Shown here piece after piece: positions 17,001-35,275 of a stretch of DNA of 64,000 nucleotides. Source of the DNA: a virus; IMG/VR virus record IMGVR_UViG_3300045988_135716, positions 64,001 through 128,000 of that record. One strand, written 5' to 3'. The number at the start of each line of letters is the position of its first letter. The stretch's first letter is position 1. Position numbers and translations under genes: made by a program. The notes beneath the pieces are model-generated. The model was not told the origin of the DNA, did not search any database, and saw only the letters and a list, made by a program, of their open reading frames with translations.

Positions 17001-17984
17001 TTGAGTCATTTAGTTGAAAATAATAATTCATCTGAGAATGGATTAAGAGTATTAAGTCTATTCGATGGTATATCTTGTGGCAGAATTGCATTGGATAGAG
17101 CTGGATTTAAGGTTAAAGATTATTACGCTTATGAGATTGAACAGAATGCAATCAAGATAAGCAGATATAATTATCCGTCCATTTATCAATGTGGTGATGT
17201 TTTTGATGAAGATTTTAGTAAATATGATGGTATTGATTTGTTAATTGGTGGCAGTCCCTGTACTGAATTTTCAGTAGCAAAGTGTTCTAAAACTGCAAAA
17301 CATAAAAGAGAAGTCGTGCCTGGTGGAGATGGTTGGAAATTGTTTATGCAATATGTAAGAGCGTTACATGAATCGAAACCAAAATATTTTCTATATGAGA
17401 ACAATTATGGCATTGCAGATTCTATACGTGATGCTATCACAAAAGAACTTGGTGTTGAACATGTGCTTTTAGACAGCCAATTAGTTTCAGCTCAAAGACG
17501 TAAGAGATTATATTGGACGAATATTCCAATAAAAGGAGAACCAGAAGATAGAGGAATTTTAGTAAAGGATGTGATTGTAAATGATTCTGAACTAATTAAG
17601 CAGTTTGATGATCGTATTAGAAACACATTAGTCAAATGTGAGAATTACATAAAATATGATTTAAGTGGCAAAGGACATTTTTCTCAGCAAGATAGGATGT
17701 ATTTTCTTAATAATAAAGCACCAACAGTTCCAAGATGTAGAACTGAAACTAAATTTAATGTTTGGTTAGGTGGAGAAACATATAAGAAAACTTGTCCTGT
17801 TGAGATAGAAAGACTTCAAACATTACCAGATGGATATACGGAGTTTGGGTTGAATGAAGATGGAAGCATTGTGAAAATGCCGAAAACAAGAAGATTTGAA
17901 GCTATTGGTAACGGTTGGACTGTTGACATTATAGCTTGGATATTTAGTTTTATGAAGGAGAAACAAGATGCAAATAACAGCTAA
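17001..17984 (+). CDS. DNA (cytosine-5)-methyltransferase
   Basis: Motif I LSLFDGISCG, motif IV GGSPCTEFS, motif VI-like LYENN, QRRKR, motif X IGNGWTV. The TTG start is poorly spaced from the SD, so the start is uncertain. Confidence 0.85.
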   Translation: MSHLVENNNSSENGLRVLSLFDGISCGRIALDRAGFKVKDYYAYEIEQNAIKISRYNYPSIYQCGDVFDEDFSKYDGIDLLIGGSPCTEFSVAKCSKTAKHKREVVPGGDGWKLFMQYVRALHESKPKYFLYENNYGIADSIRDAITKELGVEHVLLDSQLVSAQRRKRLYWTNIPIKGEPEDRGILVKDVIVNDSELIKQFDDRIRNTLVKCENYIKYDLSGKGHFSQQDRMYFLNNKAPTVPRCRTETKFNVWLGGETYKKTCPVEIERLQTLPDGYTEFGLNEDGSIVKMPKTRRFEAIGNGWTVDIIAWIFSFMKEKQDANNS

Positions 17985-18834
17985 AAGCTATTTTAGTGGA
18001 GCAGGAGGAATGGATTTAGGAATAGAGGAATCTGGAATTAACATAATTGAATCGTATGAGATAGATAAAAAGTGTTGCGACACTTTGAGAAAGAATTTCA
18101 AACATCATGTAAATGAGTCAGATATTACACAGATTACAGTTCTCGATCAGAATGATGCGGATGTTTATATTGGTACATTTCCATGTACACGATATTCAAC
18201 CATTGCTGATATTTCAGGTATAAGAACAGGTGATGATTTATTTTTACATTTCTTTAGGCATATTGCTTTAGCACAACCAGAAATGTATGTAGTAGAAAAC
18301 GTTCCTGGAATGCTTAAATTCAAAGTAGTTATGGAAGCATTGACAAAATTACCTGATTATTACGTGAGAGTTGAATGTCCTATTAACGCAAATATGTGGT
18401 TGCCACAAGAAAGAAAACGATTGATTCTAATTGGAAGTAAGAAACCATTTACCAATTTTGATTATCCTGATTCTCAACCATTAAAACTGAAAGATATTAT
18501 CGAAAATGATGCTTCGATTGATATTCCACAATATGTATATAATCGCATTAATGGAAAATATAGAGATAAACCAATTGTTTCAGATCCAGATAATGATGAT
18601 CTTGCTCCAACATGTGTAGCGCATTACGCAAAAGATAAAGGAACAAGATTAATCAAAGATGGAAAGAGAATTAGACCATATACAGTAAGGGAATATGCTA
18701 GACTGCAAGGTTTTCCAGATTGGTTTGAGTTCTGTGGAACAGATAATGATGCTTATAGACAGATTGGTAATGCTGTTGCTGTTCCAATGGGACGTTGGAT
18801 TGGCAAACAGATTGTAAAATATTTTAATTCATAA
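17968..18834 (+). CDS. DNA (cytosine-5)-methyltransferase (second copy, divergent)
   Basis: Motif I YFSGAGGMDLG, motif IV GTFPCTRYS, motif VI VVENVPG, QERKR, motif X IGNAVAVPM; AAGGAG SD. Confidence 0.85.
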   Translation: MQITAKSYFSGAGGMDLGIEESGINIIESYEIDKKCCDTLRKNFKHHVNESDITQITVLDQNDADVYIGTFPCTRYSTIADISGIRTGDDLFLHFFRHIALAQPEMYVVENVPGMLKFKVVMEALTKLPDYYVRVECPINANMWLPQERKRLILIGSKKPFTNFDYPDSQPLKLKDIIENDASIDIPQYVYNRINGKYRDKPIVSDPDNDDLAPTCVAHYAKDKGTRLIKDGKRIRPYTVREYARLQGFPDWFEFCGTDNDAYRQIGNAVAVPMGRWIGKQIVKYFNS

Positions 18835-22116: not shown

Positions 22117-23480
22117 ATGAACTACGAAGATTTTCTAAAACAAAAGGATTATGTTCTGGAAAGTAGTGGATTTAATATTGATAAAGATAAATTAAATCCC
22201 ATGCTATTTGACTTTCAGAAAGACGTAGTAAGATGGGCATTAGCAAAAGGTAGAGCTTGTATTTTTGCAGAGTGTGGGCTTGGTAAAACGCCAATGCAAT
22301 TATCATGGGCGCATCAAGTACATCTACATACGGGCGGTAAAGTTTTAATTCTTGCACCTCTATCGGTTGCGGATCAGACAAAGAGAGAATCTGAAAAATT
22401 CCATTACAATGCAAAAGTATGTGAGAAACAGGAAGATTGTATTGATGGAATCAACATTACAAACTATGAGAAATTAGACAAATTCGTAGCAAATGAATTT
22501 GTTGGAGTAGTCTTAGACGAGAGTTCAATTCTTAAATCCTACACTGGTAAAGTGAGGACTTCTATTATCGAGAATTTCCAAAATGTTCCCTATAAATTAG
22601 CTTGTACTGCGAACCTGCCCCAAATGATTATATGGAGTTGGGAAATCATTCGGAATTTTGTGGAGTTATGACACGTTCAGAGATGTTATCAATGTTCTTT
22701 GTTCATGATGGTGGTCAAACATCTAAGTGGAGATTAAAAGGTCATGCAAAAGATGTATTTTGGCAATGGATGGCAAGTTGGTCTGTATTTATTGATAATC
22801 CATCAAATTTAGGATATGACGGTACAGATTATGAATTACCTAATTTGAATATTCATGAAATTATAGTTGATGGAGATGAACCAATCACTGAATCACTCAC
22901 ATTAACAGAGCGTAGAAATGCAAGAAAAGATACTCTTGAATTAAGATGTCAAAAAGCAGCAGATTTAGTAAATAATTCAGATGAACAATGGTTAGTCTGG
23001 TGTGATCTTAATGCAGAAGGCGATAGATTGAATGAACTGATTGAAGAAAGTAAAAACGTTCAAGGAAGTGATAAGAATAAATACAAGAGTGAAACAATGC
23101 TATCATTTTCTGATGAAAAATTAAAATGTCTTATCAGCAAGCCACAGCTCGCAGGATATGGCATGAATTGGCAGAATTGCCACAATGTTATTTTTACTGG
23201 ACTTTCTGATAGTTTTGAGCAATATTATCAGGCTGTAAGAAGATGTTGGCGTTTTGGTCAGACAAAAGAAGTCAATGTATACATAATCATTTCAGCAAAA
23301 GAAGGTTGTGTAAAAGAGAATATTGAAAGAAAGCAATTAGATTTCATTACTATGAGAGATGCAATGATTAATCTGACTAAAGAAATTACTAAGAAAGAGC
23401 TTAAATCAACGTGTAGGCTTACTACACCATATGAAGCAAATACAACAATGAAATTACCAAATTGGGAGGAATTCAAATAA
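22117..23480 (+). CDS. SNF2/DEAD-like superfamily 2 helicase, reading frame broken by an apparent -1 frameshift near 22612-22616
   Basis: Motif I ECGLGKTPMQ, motif II VVLDESS, motif III region LACTA|N|PAPNDYMELGN split between track ORFs 22117-22671 and 22602-23480. C-terminal motifs GYGMNWQ and AVRRCWRFGQ are present. Confidence 0.75.
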
Positions 23481-24388
23481 TGATGAACGTAATTGATCAA
23501 GCAGTAGCAAATAGATATGCACTTTATCATGGAGACAGTGTAGAAATTACTAAGGAGATTCCAGATAATAGCATTCACTACACTATCTTTTCACCACCAT
23601 TTTCACAGTTATATGTGTACTCTAATTCAGATAGAGATATGGGTAATTGTAAAGGTGATGAAGAATTCTATAATCATTTCAAATATCTTGCAAAAGAATT
23701 ATATAGAATTACAATGCCTGGACGACTTCTGAGTTTTCATTGTATGGATTTACCTCTTATGAAATCAAGAGATGGTGTAATTGGATTAAAAGATTTTCCT
23801 GCGCTCATGCTTAAAATCTTTCAGGATTGTGGATTTATCTATCATAGTAAAGTAACTATTTGGAAGAATCCTGTTACAGAAATGCAAAGAACAAAAGCAC
23901 TTGGGCTTTTACATAAACAGATTAAGAAAGATAGTAGTATGAGTCGTCAAGGACTTCCAGATTATGTGATCACGGTTAGGAAGCCTGGTGATAATCCAGA
24001 ACGAGTTGAACACACAAATGAATCATTTCCTGTTAATGTATGGCAAAATTACGCTTCACCTGTATGGATGGACATTAGGCAGAGTGATACATTACAGAGA
24101 AAATCAGCAAGATCTGAACAGGATGAGAAACATATTTGTCCATTACAGCTTGAAGTAATTCAGAGATGTATTGAATTATGGACGAATCCAAACGATATTG
24201 TGTTTGATCCGTTTGGTGGAATTGGTTCTACTCCATATGTTGCACTTAAATTAGGAAGAAGAGGAATTGCAAGTGAATTAAAAGATAGTTATTTTGAGCA
24301 GTTGAAGAAAAATGTAGAGTCTGTGGCTGCCGAAGAACCAGAATTATTTCCAGTTGGAGAAAAGAGTATTGAGGATGTAGTCGCATAA
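23480..24388 (+). CDS. N4-cytosine / N6-adenine DNA methyltransferase (beta class, N6_N4_Mtase-like)
   Basis: Catalytic SPPF (IFSPPFSQ) lies N-terminal to the SAM-binding DPFGGIGST. TAATG overlap with the helicase; GGGAGGA SD. Confidence 0.8.
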   Translation: MMNVIDQAVANRYALYHGDSVEITKEIPDNSIHYTIFSPPFSQLYVYSNSDRDMGNCKGDEEFYNHFKYLAKELYRITMPGRLLSFHCMDLPLMKSRDGVIGLKDFPALMLKIFQDCGFIYHSKVTIWKNPVTEMQRTKALGLLHKQIKKDSSMSRQGLPDYVITVRKPGDNPERVEHTNESFPVNVWQNYASPVWMDIRQSDTLQRKSARSEQDEKHICPLQLEVIQRCIELWTNPNDIVFDPFGGIGSTPYVALKLGRRGIASELKDSYFEQLKKNVESVAAEEPELFPVGEKSIEDVVA

Positions 24389-24841: not shown

Positions 24842-25435
24842 ATGAGTTATATTATTAAATCACCAGATGAACTAAAAGATCCATTCTTATGTTATTGTGT
24901 ATTCCATAGATTTATGGAAGAAGCTGGCGAAGATTATATTGATTACAATGAATGTATTGTAAACGGGACACCATTATTGTTCTGGATGCTTGGCAAAGGA
25001 TATATTTCAGATAAAGAAACAGAAGAAGTATTAAAGAGAAGTAATGGGAGATATATTTATGTTTCAGATATTTTAAAAGACGATGCGATTTTTAAAAAGA
25101 GTTACGGTGACACATCAATTGGATCAGCAAAATCATATAGCATTTTAGCGGAATATATGTGTCAGATTTCAGAATTTAGACAAAGATTATATGATAGTGT
25201 ATATGACAAAGCAACAGGATTTGAGAATTATAAATTTTATAAAGATGAAAATGAAATTAGTCTTGCTTGTATTATCAGTGATGAAAATATGATTGAAAGT
25301 AAATTGTATTCTTTAGAAGAATTAAAAAATATGACAGTATATGAATTTGATGATTTATCATATAAAGATCAGTTTAATGCAGTAAGAAATCTTACTATTA
25401 AAGAAGCCGATGGTATAGAAGAAAAATATAGTTAG
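24842..25435 (+). CDS. hypothetical protein
   Basis: AGGAG SD; 197 codons. Confidence 0.7.
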   Translation: MSYIIKSPDELKDPFLCYCVFHRFMEEAGEDYIDYNECIVNGTPLLFWMLGKGYISDKETEEVLKRSNGRYIYVSDILKDDAIFKKSYGDTSIGSAKSYSILAEYMCQISEFRQRLYDSVYDKATGFENYKFYKDENEISLACIISDENMIESKLYSLEELKNMTVYEFDDLSYKDQFNAVRNLTIKEADGIEEKYS

Positions 25436-27565: not shown

Positions 27566-27751
27566 ATGATTAGTTTAGCAGGAAGTAGATTTAGAGTAGA
27601 GTATGATTTTGATAACGATGAATATAAAGTATTCACTAGGGATCATAGTGGACAAAAAGAAGTCACGGAATCTTTGAGTGCAGAGGACAAGGAAGAACTA
27701 ATAGATGATTTAATTTATGCTATTACAAAACTGGTCACAAAGGAAGCCTGA
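27566..27751 (+). CDS. hypothetical protein
   Basis: GAGGAA SD; 61 codons. Confidence 0.6.
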   Translation: MISLAGSRFRVEYDFDNDEYKVFTRDHSGQKEVTESLSAEDKEELIDDLIYAITKLVTKEA

Positions 27752-27764
27752 AACGGCAGTTTCA
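27749..27764 (+). repeat. Dispersed palindrome family member (TGAAAC-GGCA-GTTTCA)
   Basis: Perfect palindrome at the head of the 27.8-34.2 kb operon. Confidence 0.6.
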
Positions 27765-27820
27765 TTTGGAGAAATAAAGCACATAACAATAAATAATATA
27801 TAAAATAGGAGGAATAAAGA

Positions 27821-28429
27821 ATGATGAACAATTTTTTAAACGGGATGTTTGGGAAAATTGGAAGTGGAATGTGTAGGCTTTCAATGAATGGAGGAATTGC
27901 AGTAAAAACATCAAACGGTTACAAAAGCTACAATGTTAAAACAGGTAAACTTACTAATTGTAGCAATTTTGTGTTTGATATTGGAGAAGAATTTTTCTTT
28001 GTAATTCCAACAAATAAAGTAGAAAAAGGTGATATTATTTTAGTTAATAATAAACCAAAATGTGTCATTGAATCTGATAAAACTAAAATTACTGTAATCA
28101 ATTATGAAGATTCAACAGTAGAAACTATTTTACCTGAGAGACATGTATTTATGGGTAATACATATTTTTATGGGAAAATTGTTTCAATGTTTGGATGTGA
28201 TATTTTAAAAGGAAAGAAAGGCACAAACAATATTTTTAAATATATGATGCTTTCACAAATGATGAAAGGTGAAAACAATTCTTCTGGAATGCTAAATGGA
28301 AATAGTGGAGGAATGAGTGCTATGTTACCATTTATGATGATGGGTGGAAATATGGGAGAAATGTTTGATGGAATGTTTGATTTTGATACAGACAATGATA
28401 CAAATGTAGAAGAAGAGGAGGAAGCATAA
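27821..28429 (+). CDS. hypothetical protein with Gly/Met-rich then acidic C-terminal tail
   Basis: TAGGAGGA SD; C-terminal ..NSGGMSAMLPFMMMGGNMGEMFDGMFDFDTDNDTNVEEEEEA. Confidence 0.7.
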   Translation: MMNNFLNGMFGKIGSGMCRLSMNGGIAVKTSNGYKSYNVKTGKLTNCSNFVFDIGEEFFFVIPTNKVEKGDIILVNNKPKCVIESDKTKITVINYEDSTVETILPERHVFMGNTYFYGKIVSMFGCDILKGKKGTNNIFKYMMLSQMMKGENNSSGMLNGNSGGMSAMLPFMMMGGNMGEMFDGMFDFDTDNDTNVEEEEEA

Positions 28430-28430
28430 T

Positions 28431-29309
28431 ATGGGATGTGGATCATGGACAAGAGCTAGTTATACAAGTTATTCAAAATCAGTAGGAAGAAGTGTTTCAA
28501 AAGATGGAACAATTAGTGGTTCTTATTCTAATCAGGATATGTTCAAAGCTACAAATATTGATCCTGCACTGAATCCCAAAAATGTAATCAGAGAATGTTG
28601 CGACACAGAAGAACATCCAAATACAGTTCCAGTTATTTTAGCATTAGATGTTACTGGATCTATGGGACAAGCTGCCGTTGAAGTAGCAAAGAAACTCAAT
28701 GTAATTATGACTAAATTATATGAGAAAGTAACAGATGTTGAATTTCTCATTATGGGGATTGGAGATTTAGCATGTGACTTTTATCCTATTCAAGCTTCTC
28801 AGTTTGAATCAGATATTCGTATTGCTGAACAGCTTGATAAAATTTATTTTGAATTTGGTGGTGGTGGAAATAATTACGAGTCTTATACCGCAGCATGGTA
28901 TTTTGGTTCTCGTCATACAAAGCTTGATTGTTTAAATCGTGGAAGAAAAGGAATTATCATCACTATGGGAGATGAACAGCTTAATCCATATCTTCCGTTA
29001 AGAGGTCGTTATAGCGGATTGATTGAAGCAACAGGGGATAATCTTCAAGATGATGTAGAAACAAAAGATTTATATAATGAAGTTTCTAAAAAATTTAATA
29101 TTTATCATTTAGATGTAAATCATGGTCGTAGATGGGACGAAGATGAGATTGAAACATCTTATAGAAAATATCTTGACGATGTTCATTTTAGAAAAGTGAC
29201 TATGGATAGTATTACGAATGAAATTGTAGACATTATCATTAATGAAGCAGAAAATAATGTAGTAAATTCAGTTACAAAATCTTCTGGTTCAGAAGAAATT
29301 ACATGGTAG
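28431..29309 (+). CDS. von Willebrand factor A (vWA) domain protein
   Basis: MIDAS-type DxSxS motif in VPVILALDVTGSMGQAAVEVAKKL; the start lies 2 nt after the upstream stop. Confidence 0.7.
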   Translation: MGCGSWTRASYTSYSKSVGRSVSKDGTISGSYSNQDMFKATNIDPALNPKNVIRECCDTEEHPNTVPVILALDVTGSMGQAAVEVAKKLNVIMTKLYEKVTDVEFLIMGIGDLACDFYPIQASQFESDIRIAEQLDKIYFEFGGGGNNYESYTAAWYFGSRHTKLDCLNRGRKGIIITMGDEQLNPYLPLRGRYSGLIEATGDNLQDDVETKDLYNEVSKKFNIYHLDVNHGRRWDEDEIETSYRKYLDDVHFRKVTMDSITNEIVDIIINEAENNVVNSVTKSSGSEEITW

Positions 29310-29326
29310 AATAGGAGAATTAAAAG

Positions 29327-30427
29327 ATGAAAGACATTAAGATTGTAATTGGAGCAAATTTTGGGGATGAAGGAAAGGGCTTGATGACAGATTATTTTTC
29401 GCAAAAATCCAATAGCATTGTTGTGTGTTCAAATGGTGGAGCGCAAAGAGGACATACTGTAACAACGCCAACTGCAATTAGACATGTCTTTCATCATTTT
29501 GGATCAGGTACATTTAATAACGCAAGTACATATTTATCTGAGGATTTTATTCTTAATCCAATTATTTTTAAACAAGAATATGATGAGTTAGTAAAACTTA
29601 ATCATAATCCAAATGTATATATTAATCAAAATTGCATGATAACAACTCCATTTGATATGATAGCTAATCAAATCGTTGAGGAAAGCCGTGGTAAAAATAA
29701 ACATGGTAGTTGTGGATTAGGGGTTTTTGAGACAATTAAAAGATATAGAGCTGGTGTAACTGATTTAGATTACAATATTAAAGAATACTATTTGGAACAA
29801 CTTAAAAAGGAGGACATTGAATTATCAGGCGAATGGTTGAAAATCTTTTTTGATAATGGTATATTTGAACATTTCTTAGAAGACTTGGATTTTATGAATA
29901 GCCATTCATTGTGTATTTCAGATGAATATTTCTTAAATCAGTATGACAATATTATTTTTGAAGCAGCACAAGGGCTTTTACTTGATCAAAATAATATTGA
30001 TTATTTTCCACATCTTACCCCATCTAACACTGGAATTAAAAATCCCAAGAAAATAATTGAAAATATTGAATGGAATGATGATATAAATATTGAAACTTGT
30101 TATGCATCTCGTACTTATTTAACAAGACATGGCGCAGGGAAATTTCCATCAGAATGCAATAAAAATTTTATTAACGAATATATGTATGATAAAACAAATG
30201 TTCCAAATCCTTTTCAAGATAGATTAAGATATGGATATCTTAATCTAAGAGAACTATATAATAGATGTTCTGATGATATTGGAGATTTTGGAAACACAAA
30301 ATCAATTGCAATTACCCATTGTAACGAATATGACAAATGGGATAATGATTTGCTTATAAATTTATTTAATGATTGGAATATTTATTATTCTGATGGAGAA
30401 ACCCGAAATGATGTAGATTTAAGATAA
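29327..30427 (+). CDS. Short adenylosuccinate synthetase-family enzyme (PurA/PurZ-like)
   Basis: Collinear with PurA motifs: GDEGKG, GGAQRGHT (compare GGHNAGHT), HHFGSG, GSCGLGV, FEAAQGLLLD (compare FEGAQGTLLD), TPSNTG, TRHGAGKFPSE. At 366 aa it is shorter than bacterial PurA, as in archaeal PurA and phage PurZ. Confidence 0.8.
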   Translation: MKDIKIVIGANFGDEGKGLMTDYFSQKSNSIVVCSNGGAQRGHTVTTPTAIRHVFHHFGSGTFNNASTYLSEDFILNPIIFKQEYDELVKLNHNPNVYINQNCMITTPFDMIANQIVEESRGKNKHGSCGLGVFETIKRYRAGVTDLDYNIKEYYLEQLKKEDIELSGEWLKIFFDNGIFEHFLEDLDFMNSHSLCISDEYFLNQYDNIIFEAAQGLLLDQNNIDYFPHLTPSNTGIKNPKKIIENIEWNDDINIETCYASRTYLTRHGAGKFPSECNKNFINEYMYDKTNVPNPFQDRLRYGYLNLRELYNRCSDDIGDFGNTKSIAITHCNEYDKWDNDLLINLFNDWNIYYSDGETRNDVDLR

Positions 30428-30456
30428 ATAAAATGTTGTTTTCAAAGGAGGATAAG

Positions 30457-31041
30457 ATGAAAAGACAGATAAGAAAATTAGTTTTTGAGACAAATTCATC
30501 AAGCACACACGCTATTTGCATTACAAAAAAGAAAGATAATTATAAACTTCCAAATCATATTGATTTTGAATTTGGTGAGTTTGGGTGGGAATATGGTGAA
30601 TATAGTGATACACGTAATAAAGCATCATATTTAATTACTGCAATTTTTAGTTTTAGCAAAAGTGAAGCAGATGAAAACCTTACACGATTAAAAAATATTT
30701 TGGATTCTCATAATATTACATATTCAATTCCAGAACCAAAAGTTGAATTAGATAGGTGGAGAGGAAAAGAATATTATTATTATGATATTGGTGATAATTA
30801 CATTGACCACGTAAGAGAAACGCAAGACTTTGTAGATGCGGTTTTATCAGATTCAGAAAAGTTATTTAGATATTTATTCGGAGATTCTTTTATTATTACT
30901 GGTAATGACAATGACGATAGCTACAGGGATAGAATGTGTATCTATGAAGGTGAAGAAGAAACAGATTATGGATGCTATCCGATTTACGGAGATTTAAAAC
31001 CTGAATTTAATGATTATGAAATTTATGAGAAAGGAAATTAA
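30457..31041 (+). CDS. hypothetical protein, ETNSSS-motif family (paralogue 1)
   Basis: AAAGGAGG SD. The N-terminus MKRQIRKLVFETNSSSTHAI is almost identical to that of the next gene. Confidence 0.7.
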   Translation: MKRQIRKLVFETNSSSTHAICITKKKDNYKLPNHIDFEFGEFGWEYGEYSDTRNKASYLITAIFSFSKSEADENLTRLKNILDSHNITYSIPEPKVELDRWRGKEYYYYDIGDNYIDHVRETQDFVDAVLSDSEKLFRYLFGDSFIITGNDNDDSYRDRMCIYEGEEETDYGCYPIYGDLKPEFNDYEIYEKGN

Positions 31042-31044
31042 ATT

Positions 31045-31341
31045 ATGAAGAGACAAATTAGACGAGGTGTATTTGAAACTAATTCATCAAGCGTACATAG
31101 CTTAACAATGTGTACACAATCAGATTATGATAGATGGAAAAATGGAGAACTTATTTATGATTATTGGGATGGTAAGTTAATTTCAACTGACGAATTAGAT
31201 GATGATTATGAAGAAGGAAGATATTATACATATGAGAATTTTAATGATTATGAACAATTTGATTTTGAAACATATGAATATGACTTTACGACAGAAAATG
31301 GTGATACGGTAGTTGCATTTGGATATTACGGTCACGATTGA
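31045..31341 (+). CDS. hypothetical protein, ETNSSS-motif family (paralogue 2, short)
   Basis: N-terminus MKRQIRRGVFETNSSSVHSL; acidic/aromatic C-terminal part. Confidence 0.7.
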   Translation: MKRQIRRGVFETNSSSVHSLTMCTQSDYDRWKNGELIYDYWDGKLISTDELDDDYEEGRYYTYENFNDYEQFDFETYEYDFTTENGDTVVAFGYYGHD

Positions 31342-31356
31342 TTAGGAGGATTAAGA

Positions 31357-32247
31357 ATGGGATTATTAGGAAGATATAAAAACGGTAACTTTGTGACAAC
31401 TATTTTAAGTGACGGAACAAAAATTAGAGAAACAGAAGATGATGAATTTATTCCTTCATTTGCTGAAAATATGGATATAAAAATTTGCAACTATTGTGAT
31501 ATGGGATGTAAATTTTGTCATGAGGGTAGCACAATAAATGGCAAGTTTGGTAATATTTTAAATGAAAAATTTGTTGATACTTTACATCCATATCAAGAAG
31601 TTGCGATTGGCGGTGGTGATGCAACCAGTCATCCTGATTTAATTCCATTCTTACAAAAACTAAAAGAACGAAAAGTTATTGCAAATATGACTGTTAATCA
31701 GATCCATTTTGAAAAGAAGCATGAATTAATAAAGAGATTAGTCAATGAGAAATTAATCTATGGTCTTGGCGTTTCGTTAGTAAATCCCACAAAACATTTT
31801 ATTGAACTTATAAAACAATATCCAAATGCAGTTATTCATGTAATTAATGGTGTATTAAAACCATCTGATATAAAAGCATTAGAGAATAATAATTTAAAGA
31901 TGTTAATTCTTGGGTATAAACATTTGCGTAGAGGTAATGAGTATTTTGAAGAAGAACAGAATGATATTGAGACTAAGCAGCAATGGTTATATGAAAATCT
32001 TGAAGATATTATTCAGAAATTTAAAGTTGTAAGTTTCGATAATCTTGCCATTGAACAGTTGAATGTAAAAAGATTATTAACACAGGAAGAATGGGATGAG
32101 TTTTATATGGGTGATGACGGAAAAGTTACATATTATGTTGATATGGTAGAGCGTAAATTTGCTCAGAGTTCAACTGCTCCATTTGATAAAAGATACGATT
32201 TACTTGATTCAGTAGACGATATGTTTCATGTTATTACAAATTTATAG
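31357..32247 (+). CDS. radical SAM enzyme
   Basis: CX3CX2C cluster in ICNYCDMGCKFCHEG and a GGE-like IGGGDATSHPD segment; TAGGAGGA SD. Confidence 0.75.
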   Translation: MGLLGRYKNGNFVTTILSDGTKIRETEDDEFIPSFAENMDIKICNYCDMGCKFCHEGSTINGKFGNILNEKFVDTLHPYQEVAIGGGDATSHPDLIPFLQKLKERKVIANMTVNQIHFEKKHELIKRLVNEKLIYGLGVSLVNPTKHFIELIKQYPNAVIHVINGVLKPSDIKALENNNLKMLILGYKHLRRGNEYFEEEQNDIETKQQWLYENLEDIIQKFKVVSFDNLAIEQLNVKRLLTQEEWDEFYMGDDGKVTYYVDMVERKFAQSSTAPFDKRYDLLDSVDDMFHVITNL

Positions 32248-32257
32248 AGGATATGAT

Positions 32258-32485
32258 ATGACAGAACAAGAAATGATTGAATATTTAAAATCAACAGGAC
32301 TATACGAAGAACATGAAGATTTCTTTTATGAAAAAGAAATGCTAAATACAAATAAAACTGTTCCAATTAGTGATCTTGTTGAAAGATTTATTGGAATTGA
32401 TAAAGAATTTGAAGGAAGACCTTGGAATATCTTACAAATTCTTACAAATATTAATATGATTATTCCTGTAGAGGATAGAAAATAA
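32258..32485 (+). CDS. hypothetical protein
   Basis: The ORF opens at 32228; ATG 32258 follows an AGAGGA SD. Confidence 0.6.
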   Translation: MTEQEMIEYLKSTGLYEEHEDFFYEKEMLNTNKTVPISDLVERFIGIDKEFEGRPWNILQILTNINMIIPVEDRK

Positions 32486-32498
32486 TAGAGGAATTAAA

Positions 32499-32747
32499 AT
32501 GAACAGATTTTTTGGAATGATGCCACGTAATGAAATTGATAAAGAAGAAACATTGATTGATGAAAATAATTATAAAGTAACAATTCAAGCTGGATGCAAT
32601 GGATATACGATTATATATGCAGATGGAAGTTCTATGTATGAAGATATTACTTGTTCTACAGAAGAGAATTTTAACAAGGCATTCAGATTAGCTGAAAGTA
32701 GTGTTGGAAAACTAACTAGGACTGGACAAGTAAGTGAGGAACGTTAA
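32499..32747 (+). CDS. hypothetical protein
   Basis: AGAGGAA SD; 82 codons. Confidence 0.65.
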   Translation: MNRFFGMMPRNEIDKEETLIDENNYKVTIQAGCNGYTIIYADGSSMYEDITCSTEENFNKAFRLAESSVGKLTRTGQVSEER

Positions 32748-32748
32748 A

Positions 32749-32994
32749 TTGATTGAACTACATAAAGTAGAACAACGATTGAAAGAAATAGAAAAGAAGT
32801 TTGGTAAAGATGACTTATTTGGGTATATTGATGGATATGATTTCTCACTTATTATGCAAGATTTATTAATTCCAGATGGAGATTATGTCGTTGATACAGG
32901 TAACTGGGAGAATGTAAATTATTTCTGTGCATATGGATTGATTAAGAGAATAAAGAAACATCCGTTAATATGGAGATTATTTTTTATAATCTAG
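32749..32994 (+). CDS. hypothetical protein
   Basis: TTG 32749 lies 8 nt after GAGGA; the track ORF opens at 32734. Confidence 0.55.
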   Translation: MIELHKVEQRLKEIEKKFGKDDLFGYIDGYDFSLIMQDLLIPDGDYVVDTGNWENVNYFCAYGLIKRIKKHPLIWRLFFII

Positions 32995-33033
32995 TGATGA
33001 ATTGTTGTTTCATTTGAAAGAAAGGAGAATTTT

Positions 33034-33891
33034 ATGCCAACAAGAGATGATCTAGGAACTAGAATGAAAACTTTTTATGAGGAAATTCCAAAAACAAAAC
33101 TTATGCGTCGCTGTCCAGTTACTATTAGAATTGATGGAAAAGCATTCCATACATTTACAAGAGGATTTCAAAAACCATTTGATGAAGTTTTAATTGAAGC
33201 TATGCAGAAAACAATGAAATATCTTTGTGAAAATATCCAAGGATGTGTATTGGGATATACTCAGTCTGATGAGATTACATTGATTCTGGTTGACTATAAG
33301 AAATTAAATTCTTCTGCATGGTTTGATTATGAAGTTCAGAAAATGTGCAGTATCGCAGCGAGTATGGCTACAATGGCGTTTAATAGATTTTTCATGTATG
33401 AATATGAAGAGTTTAATAGATGGGTTAATGAAGGAAATCCAACAGATGAAGATAGACGATTAAATGATATTTATTATGATGCGATGTGTAAAGGTGCAAT
33501 GTTTGATGCACGTTGTTTCAATATTCCAAAAGAAGAAGTAACAAATCTTATCTACTGGCGACAATTAGACGCTTCTCGTAATTCAATTCAGATGGTAGGT
33601 CAAGCCAATTTCTCTCATAAAGAACTACAAAATAAATCATGTAATCAAATTCAGGATATGTTAATGGAGCAAAAAGGTATCAATTGGAATGATTTACCGA
33701 CATATCAGAAAAGAGGGGCTTGTTGTATTAAAAATAGCCATATAGTTAGATGTTCATCAGATGGAACAGAACTTTGTATAATTAAAGATCCTGGAAAACC
33801 CACAAATGAATGGATTATTGATAAAAATATTCCTATTTTTAAAGGATGTAAGAGGGAATATATTGATAAGTTAATTAATGTAGGAGAATGA
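33034..33891 (+). CDS. Thg1-like protein (tRNA-His guanylyltransferase family, 3'-5' nucleotidyltransferase)
   Basis: The N-terminal half matches Thg1/TLP hallmarks: ..RMKTFYE...CPVTIRIDGKAFHTFTRGFQKPFDEVLIEAM...GYTQSDEITLIL, including the catalytic D of RIDG and the SDE carboxylates. Confidence 0.75.
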   Translation: MPTRDDLGTRMKTFYEEIPKTKLMRRCPVTIRIDGKAFHTFTRGFQKPFDEVLIEAMQKTMKYLCENIQGCVLGYTQSDEITLILVDYKKLNSSAWFDYEVQKMCSIAASMATMAFNRFFMYEYEEFNRWVNEGNPTDEDRRLNDIYYDAMCKGAMFDARCFNIPKEEVTNLIYWRQLDASRNSIQMVGQANFSHKELQNKSCNQIQDMLMEQKGINWNDLPTYQKRGACCIKNSHIVRCSSDGTELCIIKDPGKPTNEWIIDKNIPIFKGCKREYIDKLINVGE

Positions 33892-33917
33892 ATTGCGTCT
33901 TTCATGAGGTGAGAAAT

Positions 33918-34211
33918 ATGTTTGAATTAGAATTATTTGATAAAATTCCAATGTCTGTTTATAAATTAATTTATGAACAAACTTTTGAATCACAAAGAAT
34001 GCAAGATGAAGATGAATTATATTTTACACATGGAATATCTGATCCAAATAGTTGCGATTATCATATGATGGATTTTGAAACAACTGAAATTTTAGGTACA
34101 TTTATGGATTTACGTCCAGTATCTCCAAATCAATTAAAGAGGATATTAATTTTAGGCTATTTATTTAATATGGTTTTTGGTAGATATTATACGGATAAAA
34201 ATGAGGAATAA
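33918..34211 (+). CDS. hypothetical protein
   Basis: The ORF opens at 33888; ATG 33918 follows a GAGGTGAG SD. Confidence 0.6.
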   Translation: MFELELFDKIPMSVYKLIYEQTFESQRMQDEDELYFTHGISDPNSCDYHMMDFETTEILGTFMDLRPVSPNQLKRILILGYLFNMVFGRYYTDKNEE

Positions 34212-34982: not shown

Positions 34983-35261
34983 GTGATTGATACACCAGAA
35001 ACTTGTGTAGAATGTATATTTTGTCAAGAATACAGTACAAAAAGTAGAGAATATGCATATTGCTATGTGACCAATGGGGATAGCGAAAATGACATAAAAC
35101 TAATTGACTGTATATACGGATATCGTCAATCTAAACCCGATTGGTGTCCATTGATAGAATTACCTAAAAAGAAAAATTGGGGAGAAATATTTAATGGAAA
35201 TGTTAAAGGTTGGAATGATTGTTTGAGAGAAATTACAGGTAGTCAAAAAATTAACAGTTGA
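34983..35261 (+). CDS. Cys-rich hypothetical protein
   Basis: GTG start; CVECIFC...CYV...WCP motifs. Confidence 0.55.
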   Translation: MIDTPETCVECIFCQEYSTKSREYAYCYVTNGDSENDIKLIDCIYGYRQSKPDWCPLIELPKKKNWGEIFNGNVKGWNDCLREITGSQKINS

Positions 35262-35275
35262 AAGTTTACTTTCAA
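35256..35275 (+). repeat. Dispersed palindrome family member (GTTGAAAG-TTTA-CTTTCAAC)
   Basis: 8-bp perfect arms overlapping the stop codon of the upstream gene. Confidence 0.6.

What the first reader, a model, noticed from the sequence alone, without database searches (positions are those of the whole stretch)
27749..34211. Compact operon combining vWA, PurA/PurZ-like, two ETNSSS-motif paralogues, radical SAM and Thg1-like enzymes
Eleven tightly abutting plus-strand genes, with gaps of 2-40 nt, follow one palindrome-family motif at 27749. They are: a Gly/Met-rich protein; a vWA protein (MIDAS DVTGS); the PurA-like ligase; two paralogues sharing the N-terminus MKRQIR..VFETNSSS(T/V)H, which I cannot assign to a known family; a radical SAM enzyme (C-DMG-C-KF-C); three small unknowns; a Thg1-like 3'-5' nucleotidyltransferase; and one more unknown. 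Three nucleotide-handling enzymes plus unknown paralogues in one transcription unit suggest a nucleotide or nucleic-acid modification, repair or signalling pathway that I do not recognise as a described cluster.
Basis: inference. Interest (0 to 1): 0.7.

Follow-up and report, generated by a model that had tools for sequence, protein, structure and literature searches.

The report
Three shuffled accessory modules, not one operon
The eleven genes are real, but related phages show they are three separately inherited gene sets; one of them is a widespread, undescribed pairing of a radical-SAM enzyme with proteins that all carry the same 28-residue start and often sit beside RNA-repair genes.

Summary
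All eleven genes and the domain calls hold: vWA fold, PurA-like ligase, two ETNSSS paralogues, radical SAM enzyme and Thg1-like enzyme. The one-pathway reading fails.

The closest relative (98% identity) keeps only g1-g2-g3-g8-g11. Among 116 related viral loci with full flanks, none has all eleven genes. Tight spacing is window-wide (median gap 12 nt).

Three units are inherited separately:
- **Module A:** a Met/Gly-rich protein, a vWA protein and a PurA-like ligase. They are linked in 52-53 of 53 loci and also in Vibrio, Rhizobium, marine and mycobacterial phages. The ligase is neither bona fide PurA nor PurZ.
- **Module B:** one radical SAM enzyme plus 1-9 proteins sharing an invariant N-terminal head (IR...FETNSSS.H) on at least 28 unrelated bodies. 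Linkage is reciprocal: 64 of 77 motif-seeded loci and 76 of 79 rSAM-seeded loci. The ETN1 body has a confident predicted fold with no PDB match, no Pfam family and no literature.
- **Module C:** a bacterial-type Thg1-like tRNA 5'-end repair enzyme.

Module B often lies among RNA-repair genes in unrelated phages, so a nucleic-acid repair theme is plausible for part of the block. My best guess is that the radical SAM enzyme modifies, or works through, the shared head.

The parts
27749..27764 (.). Palindrome / hairpin motif TGAAAC-N4-GTTTCA. It overlaps the stop codon of the upstream gene and is the first of the two motif copies that bracket the block.
   Evidence: Exact match at this site. The family has 25 copies against 6.2 expected. 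Copies are typically placed at stop codons, just ahead of the next ribosome-binding site.
27821..28429 (+). g1: a 202-aa protein with a beta-rich N-terminal domain, a Met/Gly-rich tail and an acidic end. First gene of module A.
   Evidence: No Pfam, PHROG or NCBIfam family. Linked to g2-g3 in 52 of 53 loci. A probable homologue sits upstream of the vWA gene in Vibrio, Rhizobium and marine phages (hhalign probability 80%, E 1.4e-5, 96 columns, with the same Met-rich tail).
28431..29309 (+). g2: a vWA-fold protein with a MIDAS-like motif D73-V-T75-G-S77, T163 and D181, and an invariant N-terminal MG. Second gene of module A.
   Evidence: phrog_2971, function unknown. AlphaFold2 pLDDT 87.2, pTM 0.88. 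Foldseek top hits are the SpaC vWA domain, integrin beta-I and alphaM I-domains, collagen VI vWA and TFIIH p44. It co-occurs with the PurA-like gene in Mycobacterium (200 vs 201 records), Rhizobium (10 vs 10) and Vibrio (6 vs 6) phages.
29327..30427 (+). g3: a divergent ligase of the adenylosuccinate-synthetase superfamily, neither PurA nor PurZ by curated cut-offs. Third gene of module A.
   Evidence: Pfam PF00709 at 2.4e-34. NCBIfam PurA scores 96 bits against a 402 cut-off, and PurZ 38.7 against 300. GDEGKG, GHT and AQG are retained. The guanine motif TKxD reads THCN (my own reading of the C-terminus, not tool-aligned).
30457..31041 (+). ETN1: a 194-aa protein with the N-terminal head MKRQIRKLVFETNSSSTH on a confidently predicted body with no PDB match. 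Module B.
   Evidence: phrog_28997. 1685 representatives at 50% clustering and no Pfam family. Invariant polar residues are listed. AlphaFold2 pLDDT 93, but the head is coil at pLDDT 62-75. The best Foldseek PDB hit is E 0.32 with TM<0.2.
31045..31341 (+). ETN2: a 98-aa protein with the same 28-residue head on an unrelated, short, acidic body ending in FGxYG(H/Y)D. Module B.
   Evidence: hhalign between the ETN1 and ETN2 profiles aligns only residues 1-28 (probability 99.3%). Orthologues occur in the same order in Lak megaphages.
31357..32247 (+). Radical SAM enzyme, 296 aa, with a single CX3CX2C cluster and no SPASM or twitch cysteines. It has a conserved 40-residue N-terminal extension. Module B.
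   Evidence: Pfam PF04055 and phrog_16999. In 51 homologues the only invariant cysteines are C47, C51 and C54. A profile search of the PDB gives only weak generic radical-SAM core hits. It is linked to ETN genes in 64 of 77 and 76 of 79 loci.
32258..32485 (+). g7: a small 75-aa ORF of unknown function. It appears with module B only in the closest relatives.
   Evidence: No family hits. Start codon. Found in only a few relatives.
32499..32747 (+). g8: a small 82-aa ORF of unknown function. Retained in the closest relative MT835469.1, rarely detected in other relatives.
   Evidence: 94.6% identical in MT835469.1, which lacks g4-g7 and g9-g10. Detected in only 2 of 63 rSAM-anchored loci and none of 53 g3-anchored loci.
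32734..32994 (+). g9: a small 86-aa ORF of unknown function with a GTG start. It varies in presence and travels with g8 in a few relatives.
   Evidence: No family hits. The g8-g9 pair is seen in L015, L017, L019 and L022.
33034..33891 (+). Thg1-like protein (bacterial-type TLP), a 3'-5' nucleotidyltransferase for tRNA 5'-end repair. Module C.
   Evidence: Pfam Thg1 at 8e-30 and phrog_4717 at 8e-90. Bacillus thuringiensis TLP 4KGK at 1.1e-59. RIDG and SDE acidic motifs align with those of 4KGK (identified as the catalytic carboxylates from my own knowledge), and there is a ~30-residue insertion. Homologues occur in 164 phage records.
33888..34211 (+). g11: a 107-aa ORF of unknown function. Retained in the closest relative MT835469.1 and in a minority of other relatives.
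   Evidence: 91.6% identical in MT835469.1. No family hits. Detected in 5 of 53 g3-anchored and 6 of 63 rSAM-anchored loci.
35259..35274 (.). Next intergenic copy of the hairpin motif (TGAAAGTTTACTTTCA). If the motif marks unit boundaries, the unit runs to here rather than to 34211.
   Evidence: It was also picked up as a stem-loop by the terminator-like scan on the minus strand.

Best explanation
The 6.4-kb block is a mosaic of three independently inherited accessory modules. They sit in the early/middle accessory region of a ~176-kb, 30% GC gut phage with Herelle-like replication genes.

**Module A (g1 - vWA - PurA-like).** This is a conserved three-protein unit found in very distant phages. 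The ligase keeps the phosphotransfer residues of adenylosuccinate synthetase (GDEGKG Asp, GHT His, AQG Gln). It has lost the guanine-specificity motif, and the aspartate-binding region is not conserved in its clade. I infer that it still activates a 6-oxopurine nucleotide by phosphorylation and displaces the phosphate with an amine. The NTP and amine preferences are probably altered, and it probably acts together with the vWA/MIDAS protein and g1. The likely purpose is nucleotide-pool salvage or counter-defence.

**Module B (ETN1, ETN2, rSAM).** One small radical SAM enzyme with a single cluster is dedicated to a family of proteins that share an invariant 28-residue N-terminal head (x-I-R-x-x-x-F-E-T-N-S-S-S-x-H) on otherwise unrelated bodies. 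I infer that the radical SAM enzyme binds this head and modifies a residue in it, most likely in the Ser-Ser-Ser/His loop, as a maturation step. The logic resembles anaerobic sulfatase-maturating enzymes or glycyl-radical activases. The matured proteins probably act in the RNA-repair or counter-defence setting in which the module is usually embedded.

**Module C.** This is a bacterial-type Thg1-like enzyme that repairs or extends tRNA 5' ends.

**Shown versus inferred.** The module boundaries, linkage statistics, folds and motifs are shown by tool results. Every chemical step is inferred.
For: **Mosaic structure**
- The closest relative has only g1-g2-g3-g8-g11, with clean cassette-like gaps at gene boundaries.
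- None of 53 + 63 related loci with full flanks has all eleven genes, and the order and spacing of the modules vary.
- In metagenome relatives L007-L010, ETN-ETN-rSAM lies upstream of g1-vWA-PurA or without it.

**Module A**
- g1 and g2 accompany g3 in 52 and 53 of 53 loci.
- vWA and PurA-like genes are adjacent in Vibrio phiKT1024, Rhizobium RHph_Y65, mycobacteriophage Pleione and three marine contigs.
- Their taxon counts in the phage database match.
- The vWA fold is confirmed and g1 homology is probable.
- The PurZ-defining Ser is an Asp here.

**Module B**
- Loci seeded on the ETN motif carry the rSAM on the same strand in 64 of 77 cases.
- Loci seeded on the rSAM carry the motif in 76 of 79 cases, and never on the opposite strand.
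- In the phage database, all 24 records with ETN1 also have the rSAM.
- In Lak phages the rSAM plus 4-5 ETN genes form a plus-strand island among minus-strand genes.
- There are 1-9 ETN genes per rSAM. R, F, ETNSSS and H are invariant in 187-188 of 188 proteins, always at residues 10-18.
- There are at least 28 body groups unlinked by BLAST, and ETN1 and ETN2 share only 28 residues.
- The head is the least confident part of an otherwise pLDDT-93 model.

**RNA-repair context**
- Searches show the neighbouring genes.
- Thg1-like genes: 4 observed against 0.07 expected. RlaP: 7 observed against about 0.12 expected from phage-database density.

**Module C**
-. The role of Thg1 in phage RNA repair is described in PMC7824862.
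Against: - No experiment or structure of a complex links the rSAM to the head. Adjacency is equally compatible with the head being a docking or catalytic element of an rSAM holoenzyme rather than its substrate.
- Protein-modifying rSAM oxidases such as anSME carry SPASM auxiliary clusters, and this enzyme has none.
- The ETN1 body has its own set of invariant polar residues (Y, DH, TGNDN, KGN). It may therefore be an enzyme whose head is simply part of the active site.
- About 10% of ETN loci with adequate flanks show no rSAM at my tblastn threshold.
- For module A, no substrate evidence exists. The ligase could be an ordinary AMP-synthesis auxiliary gene.
- The enrichment of RNA-repair genes uses a crude whole-database background, and the loci are not phylogenetically independent.
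- In about 15 of the 160 related loci examined, the two triads do abut exactly as in the window. Co-transcription here is therefore not excluded.
Confidence: 0.65

Rival explanations
1. One reading: all eleven genes form one operon encoding a single nucleotide or nucleic-acid modification, repair or signalling pathway. Its enzymes (vWA, PurA-like, ETN, rSAM, Thg1) would act in sequence.
For: All genes are co-oriented and tightly spaced between two copies of the hairpin motif. In about 15 of the 160 related loci examined, ETN/rSAM follows g3 directly. Six to seven fully flanked loci per anchor set (6 of 63 rSAM-anchored, 7 of 53 g3-anchored; the two sets overlap) carry g1-3, ETN/rSAM and Thg1 within the 8-10 kb flanks.
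Against: None of 116 fully flanked loci has all eleven genes. The 98%-identical relative lacks six of them. None of 77 diverse ETN loci has the vWA or PurA-like gene. None of the vWA/PurA loci examined in other phage lineages showed an ETN or rSAM homologue of this kind. Tight spacing is the window-wide norm.
Confidence: 0.05
2. The ETN head is not a substrate. It is a docking or catalytic element, so each ETN protein is an interchangeable subunit that forms a holoenzyme with the rSAM. The bodies would choose different RNA, tRNA or nucleotide targets. The module would be a radical-based RNA repair or modification machine working alongside Thg1-like, RlaP, CCA-adding and ligase enzymes.
For: The linkage data are the same as for the main explanation. 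Invariant polar residues E, T, N, S, S, S and H look like a catalytic or ligand-binding loop. ETN/rSAM is embedded in RNA-repair islands; in L175 and L190 a Thg1-like gene follows the rSAM directly, and in L177 and L233 an RlaP gene precedes the ETN genes directly. Many radical SAM enzymes act on tRNA (general knowledge).
Against: No nucleic-acid-binding domain was detected in the rSAM or the ETN proteins. ETN2-type bodies are short and very acidic, which argues against RNA binding. Most ETN loci (about 65-78%) show no detectable RNA-repair neighbour within the flanks.
Confidence: 0.25
3. The PurA-like gene is a PurZ, and the block belongs to a 2-aminoadenine (Z-genome) pathway.
For: PHROG 1211 is labelled '2-aminooxy adenylosuccinate synthetase'. 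Many database records copy that name.
Against: The NCBIfam PurZ model scores 38.7 bits against a 300-bit cut-off. The PurZ-specific Ser is an Asp here (GDEGKG). No PurZ structure appears among the 22 PDB hits, whereas bacterial PurA enzymes do. The neighbours are vWA and ETN genes, not DatZ or MazZ. The same clade occurs in about 200 cluster C mycobacteriophages; from my own knowledge, not a tool result, no Z-DNA has been reported for these.
Confidence: 0.03
4. The PurA-like protein is an ordinary auxiliary metabolic gene that boosts AMP synthesis. Its association with the vWA protein and g1 is structural or regulatory only, or fortuitous.
For: The catalytic Asp, His and Gln are retained. Phages often carry purine-pathway genes (general knowledge). 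NAD and nucleotide salvage genes lie nearby in several lineages.
Against: The score is far below the PurA equivalog cut-offs. The guanine-specificity motif is lost and the aspartate-binding segment is not conserved within the clade. The link to the vWA gene is near-perfect across four distant phage lineages.
Confidence: 0.2

Closest known systems
Adenylosuccinate synthetase PurA and phage PurZ (2-aminoadenine pathway)
   Same: It belongs to the same superfamily (Pfam PF00709). The P-loop GDEGKG, the catalytic His (GHT) and the Gln (AQG) are retained.
   Different: It fails the curated PurA and PurZ cut-offs. Its C-terminus is about 65 residues shorter. TKxD reads THCN, and the aspartate-binding Thr/Arg segment is not conserved. 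It has Asp where PurZ has Ser. It is always paired with a vWA protein and g1, whereas PurZ pairs with DatZ and MazZ.
Radical SAM maturases with dedicated protein substrates (anSME with sulfatases; PflA or NrdG with glycyl-radical enzymes)
   Same: One radical SAM enzyme is encoded next to its protein partners. An invariant short motif is shared by several paralogous partners. The enzyme's size and single cluster resemble the activases.
   Different: There is no SPASM domain, unlike anSME. The head has no Gly-radical motif and no C/S-x-P-x-R motif. The partner proteins are small (92-318 aa), and ETN1, the only one modelled, has a predicted fold with no PDB match. No chemistry has been demonstrated.
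RiPP systems in which one radical SAM enzyme serves several precursor peptides
   Same: A conserved N-terminal segment is followed by a variable remainder. There are several copies per enzyme, arranged in tandem.
   Different: At least ETN1, the one partner modelled, is a folded protein with its own conserved active-site-like residues rather than a short peptide. No RRE or SPASM domain and no protease or transporter genes are present. The invariant part looks like the reactive site rather than a leader.
Bacterial Thg1-like proteins (for example Bacillus thuringiensis TLP, PDB 4KGK) and phage RNA-repair islands (Rnl, Pnkp, RlaP, CCA-adding enzyme, Thg1; PMC7824862)
   Same: g10 matches 4KGK at 1e-59 and keeps the RIDG and SDE acidic motifs that align with 4KGK. 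The surrounding gene theme recurs in other phages.
   Different: g10 has a 30-residue insertion. No tRNA genes lie in this window. The ETN/rSAM and PurA-like triads are not described as parts of such islands.
vWA/MIDAS partner proteins (MoxR-vWA chaperones, TerY/TerF vWA, Ro60 vWA)
   Same: The fold is vWA, and the MIDAS residues D-x-T-x-S...T...D are conserved.
   Different: No MoxR ATPase, TROVE or Ter genes are adjacent. No Pfam vWA model detects it. It has a unique, conserved 60-residue N-terminal extension that begins with MG.

Membership tests
PurA (adenylosuccinate synthetase, EC 6.3.4.4) | Match to the superfamily model PF00709 | tested here: met
   2.4e-34, 119 bits against a 27-bit cut-off, covering residues 6-284 of 366.
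PurA (adenylosuccinate synthetase, EC 6.3.4.4) | Score above the NCBIfam equivalog cut-offs | tested here: not met
   96 bits against 402, 91.5 against 445, and 83 against 395.
PurA (adenylosuccinate synthetase, EC 6.3.4.4) | Catalytic Asp13 and Lys16 (GDEGKG), His41 (GHT) and Gln224 (AQG) | tested here: met
   Alignments to PDB PurA chains and the clade alignment.
PurA (adenylosuccinate synthetase, EC 6.3.4.4) | Guanine-specificity motif (T-K-x-D) and the aspartate-binding Thr300/Thr301/Arg303 | tested here: inconclusive
   The C-terminal 100 residues give no PDB hit. By eye TKxD corresponds to THCN. The R-x-R segment is not conserved within the clade.
PurZ (2-aminoadenine pathway) | NCBIfam NF038379 cut-off | tested here: not met
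   38.7 bits against 300.
PurZ (2-aminoadenine pathway) | Ser in place of the PurA catalytic-loop Asp (S14 in phiVC8, S23 in S-2L) | tested here: not met
   The residue is Asp14 in GDEGKG.
PurZ (2-aminoadenine pathway) | Neighbouring DatZ and MazZ genes | tested here: not met
   The adjacent genes are the vWA, g1 and ETN genes. The rest of the phage genome was not scanned.
von Willebrand A domain | Rossmann-like vWA fold | tested here: met
   The AlphaFold2 model (pLDDT 87) gives 192 Foldseek PDB hits at E<=1e-3, all of them vWA or I-domains.
von Willebrand A domain | MIDAS residues D-x-S/T-x-S ... T ... D | tested here: met
   D73, T75, S77, T163 and D181 are invariant or nearly so in 95 homologues. 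Metal binding itself was not tested.
von Willebrand A domain | Match to a Pfam vWA model | tested here: not met
   No hit for g2 or three distant homologues at E<=0.1. A profile search of PDB sequences found nothing.
Radical SAM superfamily | CX3CX2C cluster motif and a PF04055 match | tested here: met
   C47, C51 and C54 are invariant in 51 homologues. PF04055 scores 30.0 bits against 29.5.
SPASM/twitch radical SAM maturases (anSME, RiPP enzymes) | Auxiliary Fe-S cluster cysteines in a C-terminal extension | tested here: not met
   There are no further conserved cysteines. Only the N-terminal core matches SuiB, PqqE and SkfB, and weakly.
Glycyl-radical enzyme / activase pairs | Conserved Gly-radical motif (RVxG) in the partner protein | tested here: not met
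   The head consensus has no invariant Gly. The Gly at position -3 occurs in only 84 of 188 proteins.
Thg1 / Thg1-like proteins | Thg1 catalytic domain with the metal-binding Asp and Asp-Glu | tested here: met
   PF04446 at 8e-30. 4KGK at 1.1e-59, with RIDG and SDE aligned.
Thg1 / Thg1-like proteins | Templated 3'-5' addition on tRNA | not testable with these tools
   This needs an enzyme assay.
Known anti-phage defence systems (PADLOC) | Match to any defence-system protein model | tested here: not met
   The only hit is a generic pVip match for the rSAM at E 0.0027.

The most novel reading that the evidence does not exclude
The ETN-head/rSAM module is a new kind of radical-SAM system. A dedicated single-cluster enzyme would install a post-translational modification (or protein-derived cofactor) on the invariant Ser-Ser-Ser/His loop of a portable 28-residue N-terminal head. 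That step would activate a diversifying set of phage effector proteins, of which the one modelled (ETN1) has a predicted fold with no PDB match. These effectors would act in RNA repair or counter-defence. A second, less likely reading concerns the vWA-partnered PurA-like ligase: it may re-aminate deaminated adenine nucleotides, or ligate a non-aspartate amine, to counter nucleotide-targeting host immunity.
Probability: 0.3. Interest if true: 0.85.

Novelty: new variant of a known kind. Interest (0 to 1): 0.6.

Why it matters
**ETN-head family and its radical SAM enzyme.** The pair is abundant: 1685 representative clusters at 50% identity and at least 570 viral contigs. It spans phages of Firmicutes, Bacteroidota (including Lak megaphages), cyanobacteria and candidate phyla radiation (CPR) bacteria, and contigs binned with archaeal (Methanobrevibacter) genomes. 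It has no Pfam family, no PDB fold match and no literature.

An invariant head on many unrelated bodies, with 1-9 copies next to one enzyme, gives radical-SAM enzymologists a clean and directly testable question. It may also reveal a new protein modification or a new arm of phage RNA repair and counter-defence.

**vWA-partnered PurA-like triad.** This is a second conserved module of unknown function, present in about 200 well-studied mycobacteriophages. Genetics is therefore feasible straight away.

**Annotation.** The result also corrects the widespread habit of labelling this ligase clade as PurZ.

Tried and rejected
- **PurZ / Z-genome reading:** rejected on the curated score, the Asp14 residue and the neighbouring genes.
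- **Sequence searches for the ETN proteins, g1, g2 and the small ORFs g7-g9 and g11:** Pfam, NCBIfam and PADLOC gave no significant family for any of them (two weak sub-threshold matches only), and the PDB sequence/profile searches run for g2 found nothing meaningful.
- **rSAM against the PDB:** a profile search gave only generic core matches.
- **Fold search of the ETN1 model:** nothing in the PDB, and only one uncharacterised phage protein in BFVD.
- **C-terminus of the PurA-like protein against the PDB:** no hit.
- **Possible tRNA-His link through the Ma-LMM01 gp131 annotation 'histidyl tRNA synthetase':** dropped. gp131 has no Pfam support and no similarity to the Thg1-like gene.
- **RiPP-precursor reading of the ETN proteins:** rejected. 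ETN1 is a confidently folded 194-aa protein with its own invariant residues.
- **Rfam scan of 24-37 kb:** nothing above threshold.
- **Promoter and terminator scans:** not above shuffled expectation.
- **Literature searches:** 'ETNSSS', vWA plus adenylosuccinate synthetase, and phage radical SAM paralogues all returned nothing relevant.

Full report
**Setting.** The window has about 30% GC and essentially all its genes lie on the plus strand. Replication genes at 55-63 kb are a DnaB-like helicase, a primase, a RecJ-like exonuclease and a large PolA of phrog_405. HNH endonucleases and DNA methyltransferases lie upstream. It is therefore a large phage. The nearest public record is an unannotated 176-kb human-gut phage, MT835469.1. 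A 98%-identical copy of g2 is labelled in NCBI as coming from an Anaerobutyricum hallii assembly, which hints at the host. No tRNA genes lie in the window.

**Observation.** The eleven ORFs are present. Two starts need correction: ETN1 begins at ATG 30457 behind an AAAGGAGG site, and g7 begins at ATG 32258.
- The palindrome at 27749 is exact. It belongs to a family with 25 matches against 6.2 expected.
- Its members usually begin at or just after a stop codon and precede the next ribosome-binding site.
- Tight spacing is not a property of this block. The window has 115 plus-strand genes with a median gap of 12 nt.

**Identities.**
- g3 is a member of the adenylosuccinate-synthetase superfamily (Pfam 2.4e-34).
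- g6 is a radical SAM enzyme with a single CX3CX2C motif.
- g10 is a bacterial-type Thg1-like protein (PDB 4KGK at 1e-59, with the RIDG and SDE acidic motifs aligned).
- g2 has no sequence-level family, even with a profile. Its AlphaFold2 model (pLDDT 87, pTM 0.88) is clearly a vWA domain. D73-x-T75-x-S77, T163 and D181 are conserved in 95 homologues.
- g1, g7, g8, g9 and g11 match nothing significant.

**Synteny test.** MT835469.1 is about 98% identical in the shared genes. It carries only g1-g2-g3-g8-g11, with short spacers where g4-g7 and g9-g10 would be. ETN1 and the rSAM have no tblastn hit anywhere in that record. I then fetched 160 IMG/VR loci anchored on the rSAM or on g3.
- Among 53 g3-anchored loci with at least 8 kb on both sides, g1 is present in 52 and g2 in 53.
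- In the same set ETN/rSAM is present in only 17. It lies directly after g3 in 5 and upstream of g1 in 12. Thg1 is present in 13.
- Among 63 rSAM-anchored loci, an ETN gene is present in 62, but g1-g3 in only 22-24 and Thg1 in 12.
- No locus has all eleven genes.
- Some relatives carry a 357-aa zinc-ribbon ORF, probably a homing endonuclease, inserted between g2 and g3.

**Module A: g1 - vWA - PurA-like.** The vWA and PurA-like genes are adjacent, sometimes with a small ORF between them. This holds in Vibrio phage phiKT1024, Rhizobium phage RHph_Y65, mycobacteriophage Pleione and three marine metagenome contigs.
- Their taxon distributions in the phage database match closely: Mycobacterium 200 vs 201 records, Rhizobium 10 vs 10, Vibrio 6 vs 6.
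- The gene upstream of the vWA gene in the Vibrio, Rhizobium and marine loci has the same build as g1, including a Met/Gly-rich tail. It is a probable homologue (hhalign 80%, E 1.4e-5).
- The ligase is not PurA by curated cut-offs (96 bits against 402) and not PurZ (38.7 against 300).
- It keeps GDEGKG, GHT and AQG. It therefore has Asp where PurZ has the specificity-defining Ser.
- Its C-terminal 100 residues match nothing in the PDB. By eye the guanine motif TKxD is THCN, and the aspartate-binding segment is not conserved in the clade.
- Neighbours in other lineages are NAMPT, NADAR, NMNAT/Nudix, a PRTase-like gene, a polynucleotide kinase, a Ser/Thr kinase, a TROVE protein, a ligase and a metallophosphatase.

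I infer a PurA-type phosphorylate-then-aminate reaction on a purine nucleotide with altered NTP or amine preference. It is probably used for nucleotide-pool salvage or counter-defence together with the vWA protein. This is inference only.

**Module B: ETN-head proteins plus the rSAM.** ETN1 and ETN2 share only residues 1-28 (hhalign 99.3%).
- *Abundance.* The family is large: 1638 clusters at 90% identity and 1685 representatives at 50%. None has a Pfam domain.
- *Motif-seeded test.* A genome-wide scan seeded only with FETNSSS[TVI]H returned 77 loci. They came from MAGs and isolates of Firmicutes, Bacteroidota, CPR bacteria, Planctomycetes, Treponema and Methanobrevibacter. Sixty-four carry a g6-like rSAM on the same strand within a few kb, and several of the rest are truncated contigs.
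- *Reciprocal test.* A scan seeded on rSAM motifs found at least 570 viral contigs. Of the 79 fetched, 76 carry the motif on the same strand and none on the other strand.
- *Phage database.* The same 24 records (Lak megaphages and the Microcystis phage Ma-LMM01 group) carry both genes. In Lak-A2 the rSAM and five ETN genes form a plus-strand island among minus-strand genes.
- *The head.* Across 188 ETN proteins the Glu of the motif is always at residue 10-12. R(-5), F(-1), ETNSSS and H(+7) are invariant. Lengths run from 92 to 318 aa, excluding two truncated fragments of 20 and 50 aa, and copy number per locus from 1 to 9.
- *The bodies.* They fall into at least 28 groups unlinked by BLAST. 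The ETN1 type occurs in 63 loci and the ETN2 type in 40.
- *ETN1 structure.* ETN1 orthologues also conserve Y58, D117-H118, T148-G-N-D-N152, K192 and N194 (the alignment numbering is one higher because my query carried one extra residue). The model is very confident (pLDDT 93, pTM 0.87), except that the first 16 residues, which hold the motif, are coil at pLDDT 62-75. It has no structural neighbour in the PDB (best E 0.32, TM<0.2). In BFVD it matches only one uncharacterised phage protein.
- *The rSAM.* It has no auxiliary-cluster cysteines, and it has a conserved 40-residue N-terminal extension. A profile search of the PDB finds only weak generic core similarity.
- *Literature.* No paper in the searchable library contains the motif.

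The simplest reading is that the rSAM recognises the shared head and modifies it. The rival reading is that the head docks each ETN protein to the rSAM as part of a holoenzyme.

**Context of module B, and module C.** Thg1-like proteins, RlaP, CCA-adding enzyme and RNA ligases are recognised phage RNA-repair components (PMC7824862).
- Using seven such proteins as tblastn probes, 18 of 80 diverse ETN loci and 28 of 79 rSAM-seeded loci have at least one within 6-8 kb.
- Examples include RlaP-x-CCA-DHH-ETNx3-rSAM in Eubacterium plexicaudatum ASF492. Others are RNA ligase plus a PNK-like kinase just upstream (L008, L009) and a Thg1-like gene directly after the rSAM (L175, L190).
- Against whole-database densities, Thg1-like genes (4 observed, 0.07 expected) and RlaP (7 observed, about 0.12 expected) are enriched about fifty-fold. 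This background is crude and the loci are not independent.
- The proximity of the Thg1-like gene to ETN/rSAM in the window is therefore probably thematic, reflecting a shared RNA-repair or counter-defence island. It is not an obligate coupling. Most ETN loci lack a Thg1-like gene nearby, and Lak phages keep theirs roughly 50-125 kb away from the ETN/rSAM module.

**Verdict.** The block contains one ordinary element and two conserved, undescribed modules.
- The ordinary element is a Thg1-like repair enzyme.
- The ETN-head/rSAM module is the more remarkable of the two undescribed ones. It combines an invariant portable head, many unrelated bodies, one dedicated enzyme and, for ETN1, a predicted fold with no PDB match.
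- Defence-system models and Rfam add nothing.

Noticed in passing
window 24811, 25437, 27749, 35259, 37250, 42920, 46227, 50515 and others: There is a family of TGAAAC-N4-GTTTCA hairpins or palindromes. The stem sequence is conserved and the loop varies. They usually start at or within 8 nt of a stop codon and lie 10-60 nt before the next start, often directly before the GGAG ribosome-binding site. They could be intercistronic RNA processing or regulatory sites, or an operator for a dimeric protein.
   Followed up: partly
L124 8915-9988 (also L111, L135 and others; an 0.8-kb variant in L034 and L170): In several relatives a 357-aa ORF with CxxC...CxxC zinc-ribbon motifs is inserted exactly between g2 (vWA) and g3 (PurA-like). 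It is probably a homing endonuclease. In L124 the ligase P-loop reads GDCGKG instead of GDEGKG.
   Followed up: partly
L249 3733-5139, L250 3743-5140, L249 9396-9833, L002 5038-5682, L003 2546-4221: NAMPT, NADAR, NMNAT/Nudix and PRTase-like genes recur within a few kb of the g1-vWA-PurA-like triad in marine, Vibrio and Rhizobium phages. This points to a link with NAD or ADP-ribose salvage.
   Followed up: partly
L009 13479-14375: A second, different radical SAM gene (PF04055 at 8.5e-17 plus Fer4_12) lies immediately upstream of g1-vWA-PurA-like in some relatives. It is distinct from the ETN-linked rSAM.
   Followed up: no
L226 and L228 (Fibrobacter and Prevotella rumen MAG contigs); L204 (Methanobrevibacter MAG): There are extreme expansions of ETN-head genes, with nine copies (L226, L228) or six copies (L204) next to one rSAM. 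This suggests diversification under selection.
   Followed up: partly
L004 3971-4771 (Ma-LMM01 gp131): This gene is annotated 'histidyl tRNA synthetase' and lies directly upstream of the cyanophage ETN/rSAM module. It has no Pfam hit at E<=0.1 and no similarity to the Thg1-like gene, so the annotation looks unsupported.
   Followed up: yes
L218 9883-10683 and L178 10186-10989: A vWA-TerF-like protein (PF10138 at 4e-58), unrelated in sequence to g2, lies directly downstream of the ETN/rSAM module in two Clostridia-type loci. This is a second, independent pairing of a vWA protein with this module.
   Followed up: no
window 17001-18834 and 22602-24388: Two adjacent ORFs both match the same region of the DNA methyltransferase family phrog_116. 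A neighbouring pair matches helicase and methyltransferase fragments. These may be split or duplicated genes near HNH endonucleases.
   Followed up: no
P0276: A 98%-identical copy of the vWA protein is recorded in NCBI on a 7.3-kb contig of an Anaerobutyricum hallii assembly. This hints at the host genus of this phage group.
   Followed up: no
window 25271-25333: There is a weak, sub-threshold Rfam match to Bacilli-1 sRNA (23.8 bits against a gathering score of 55.6, E 0.083). It is probably chance.
   Followed up: no
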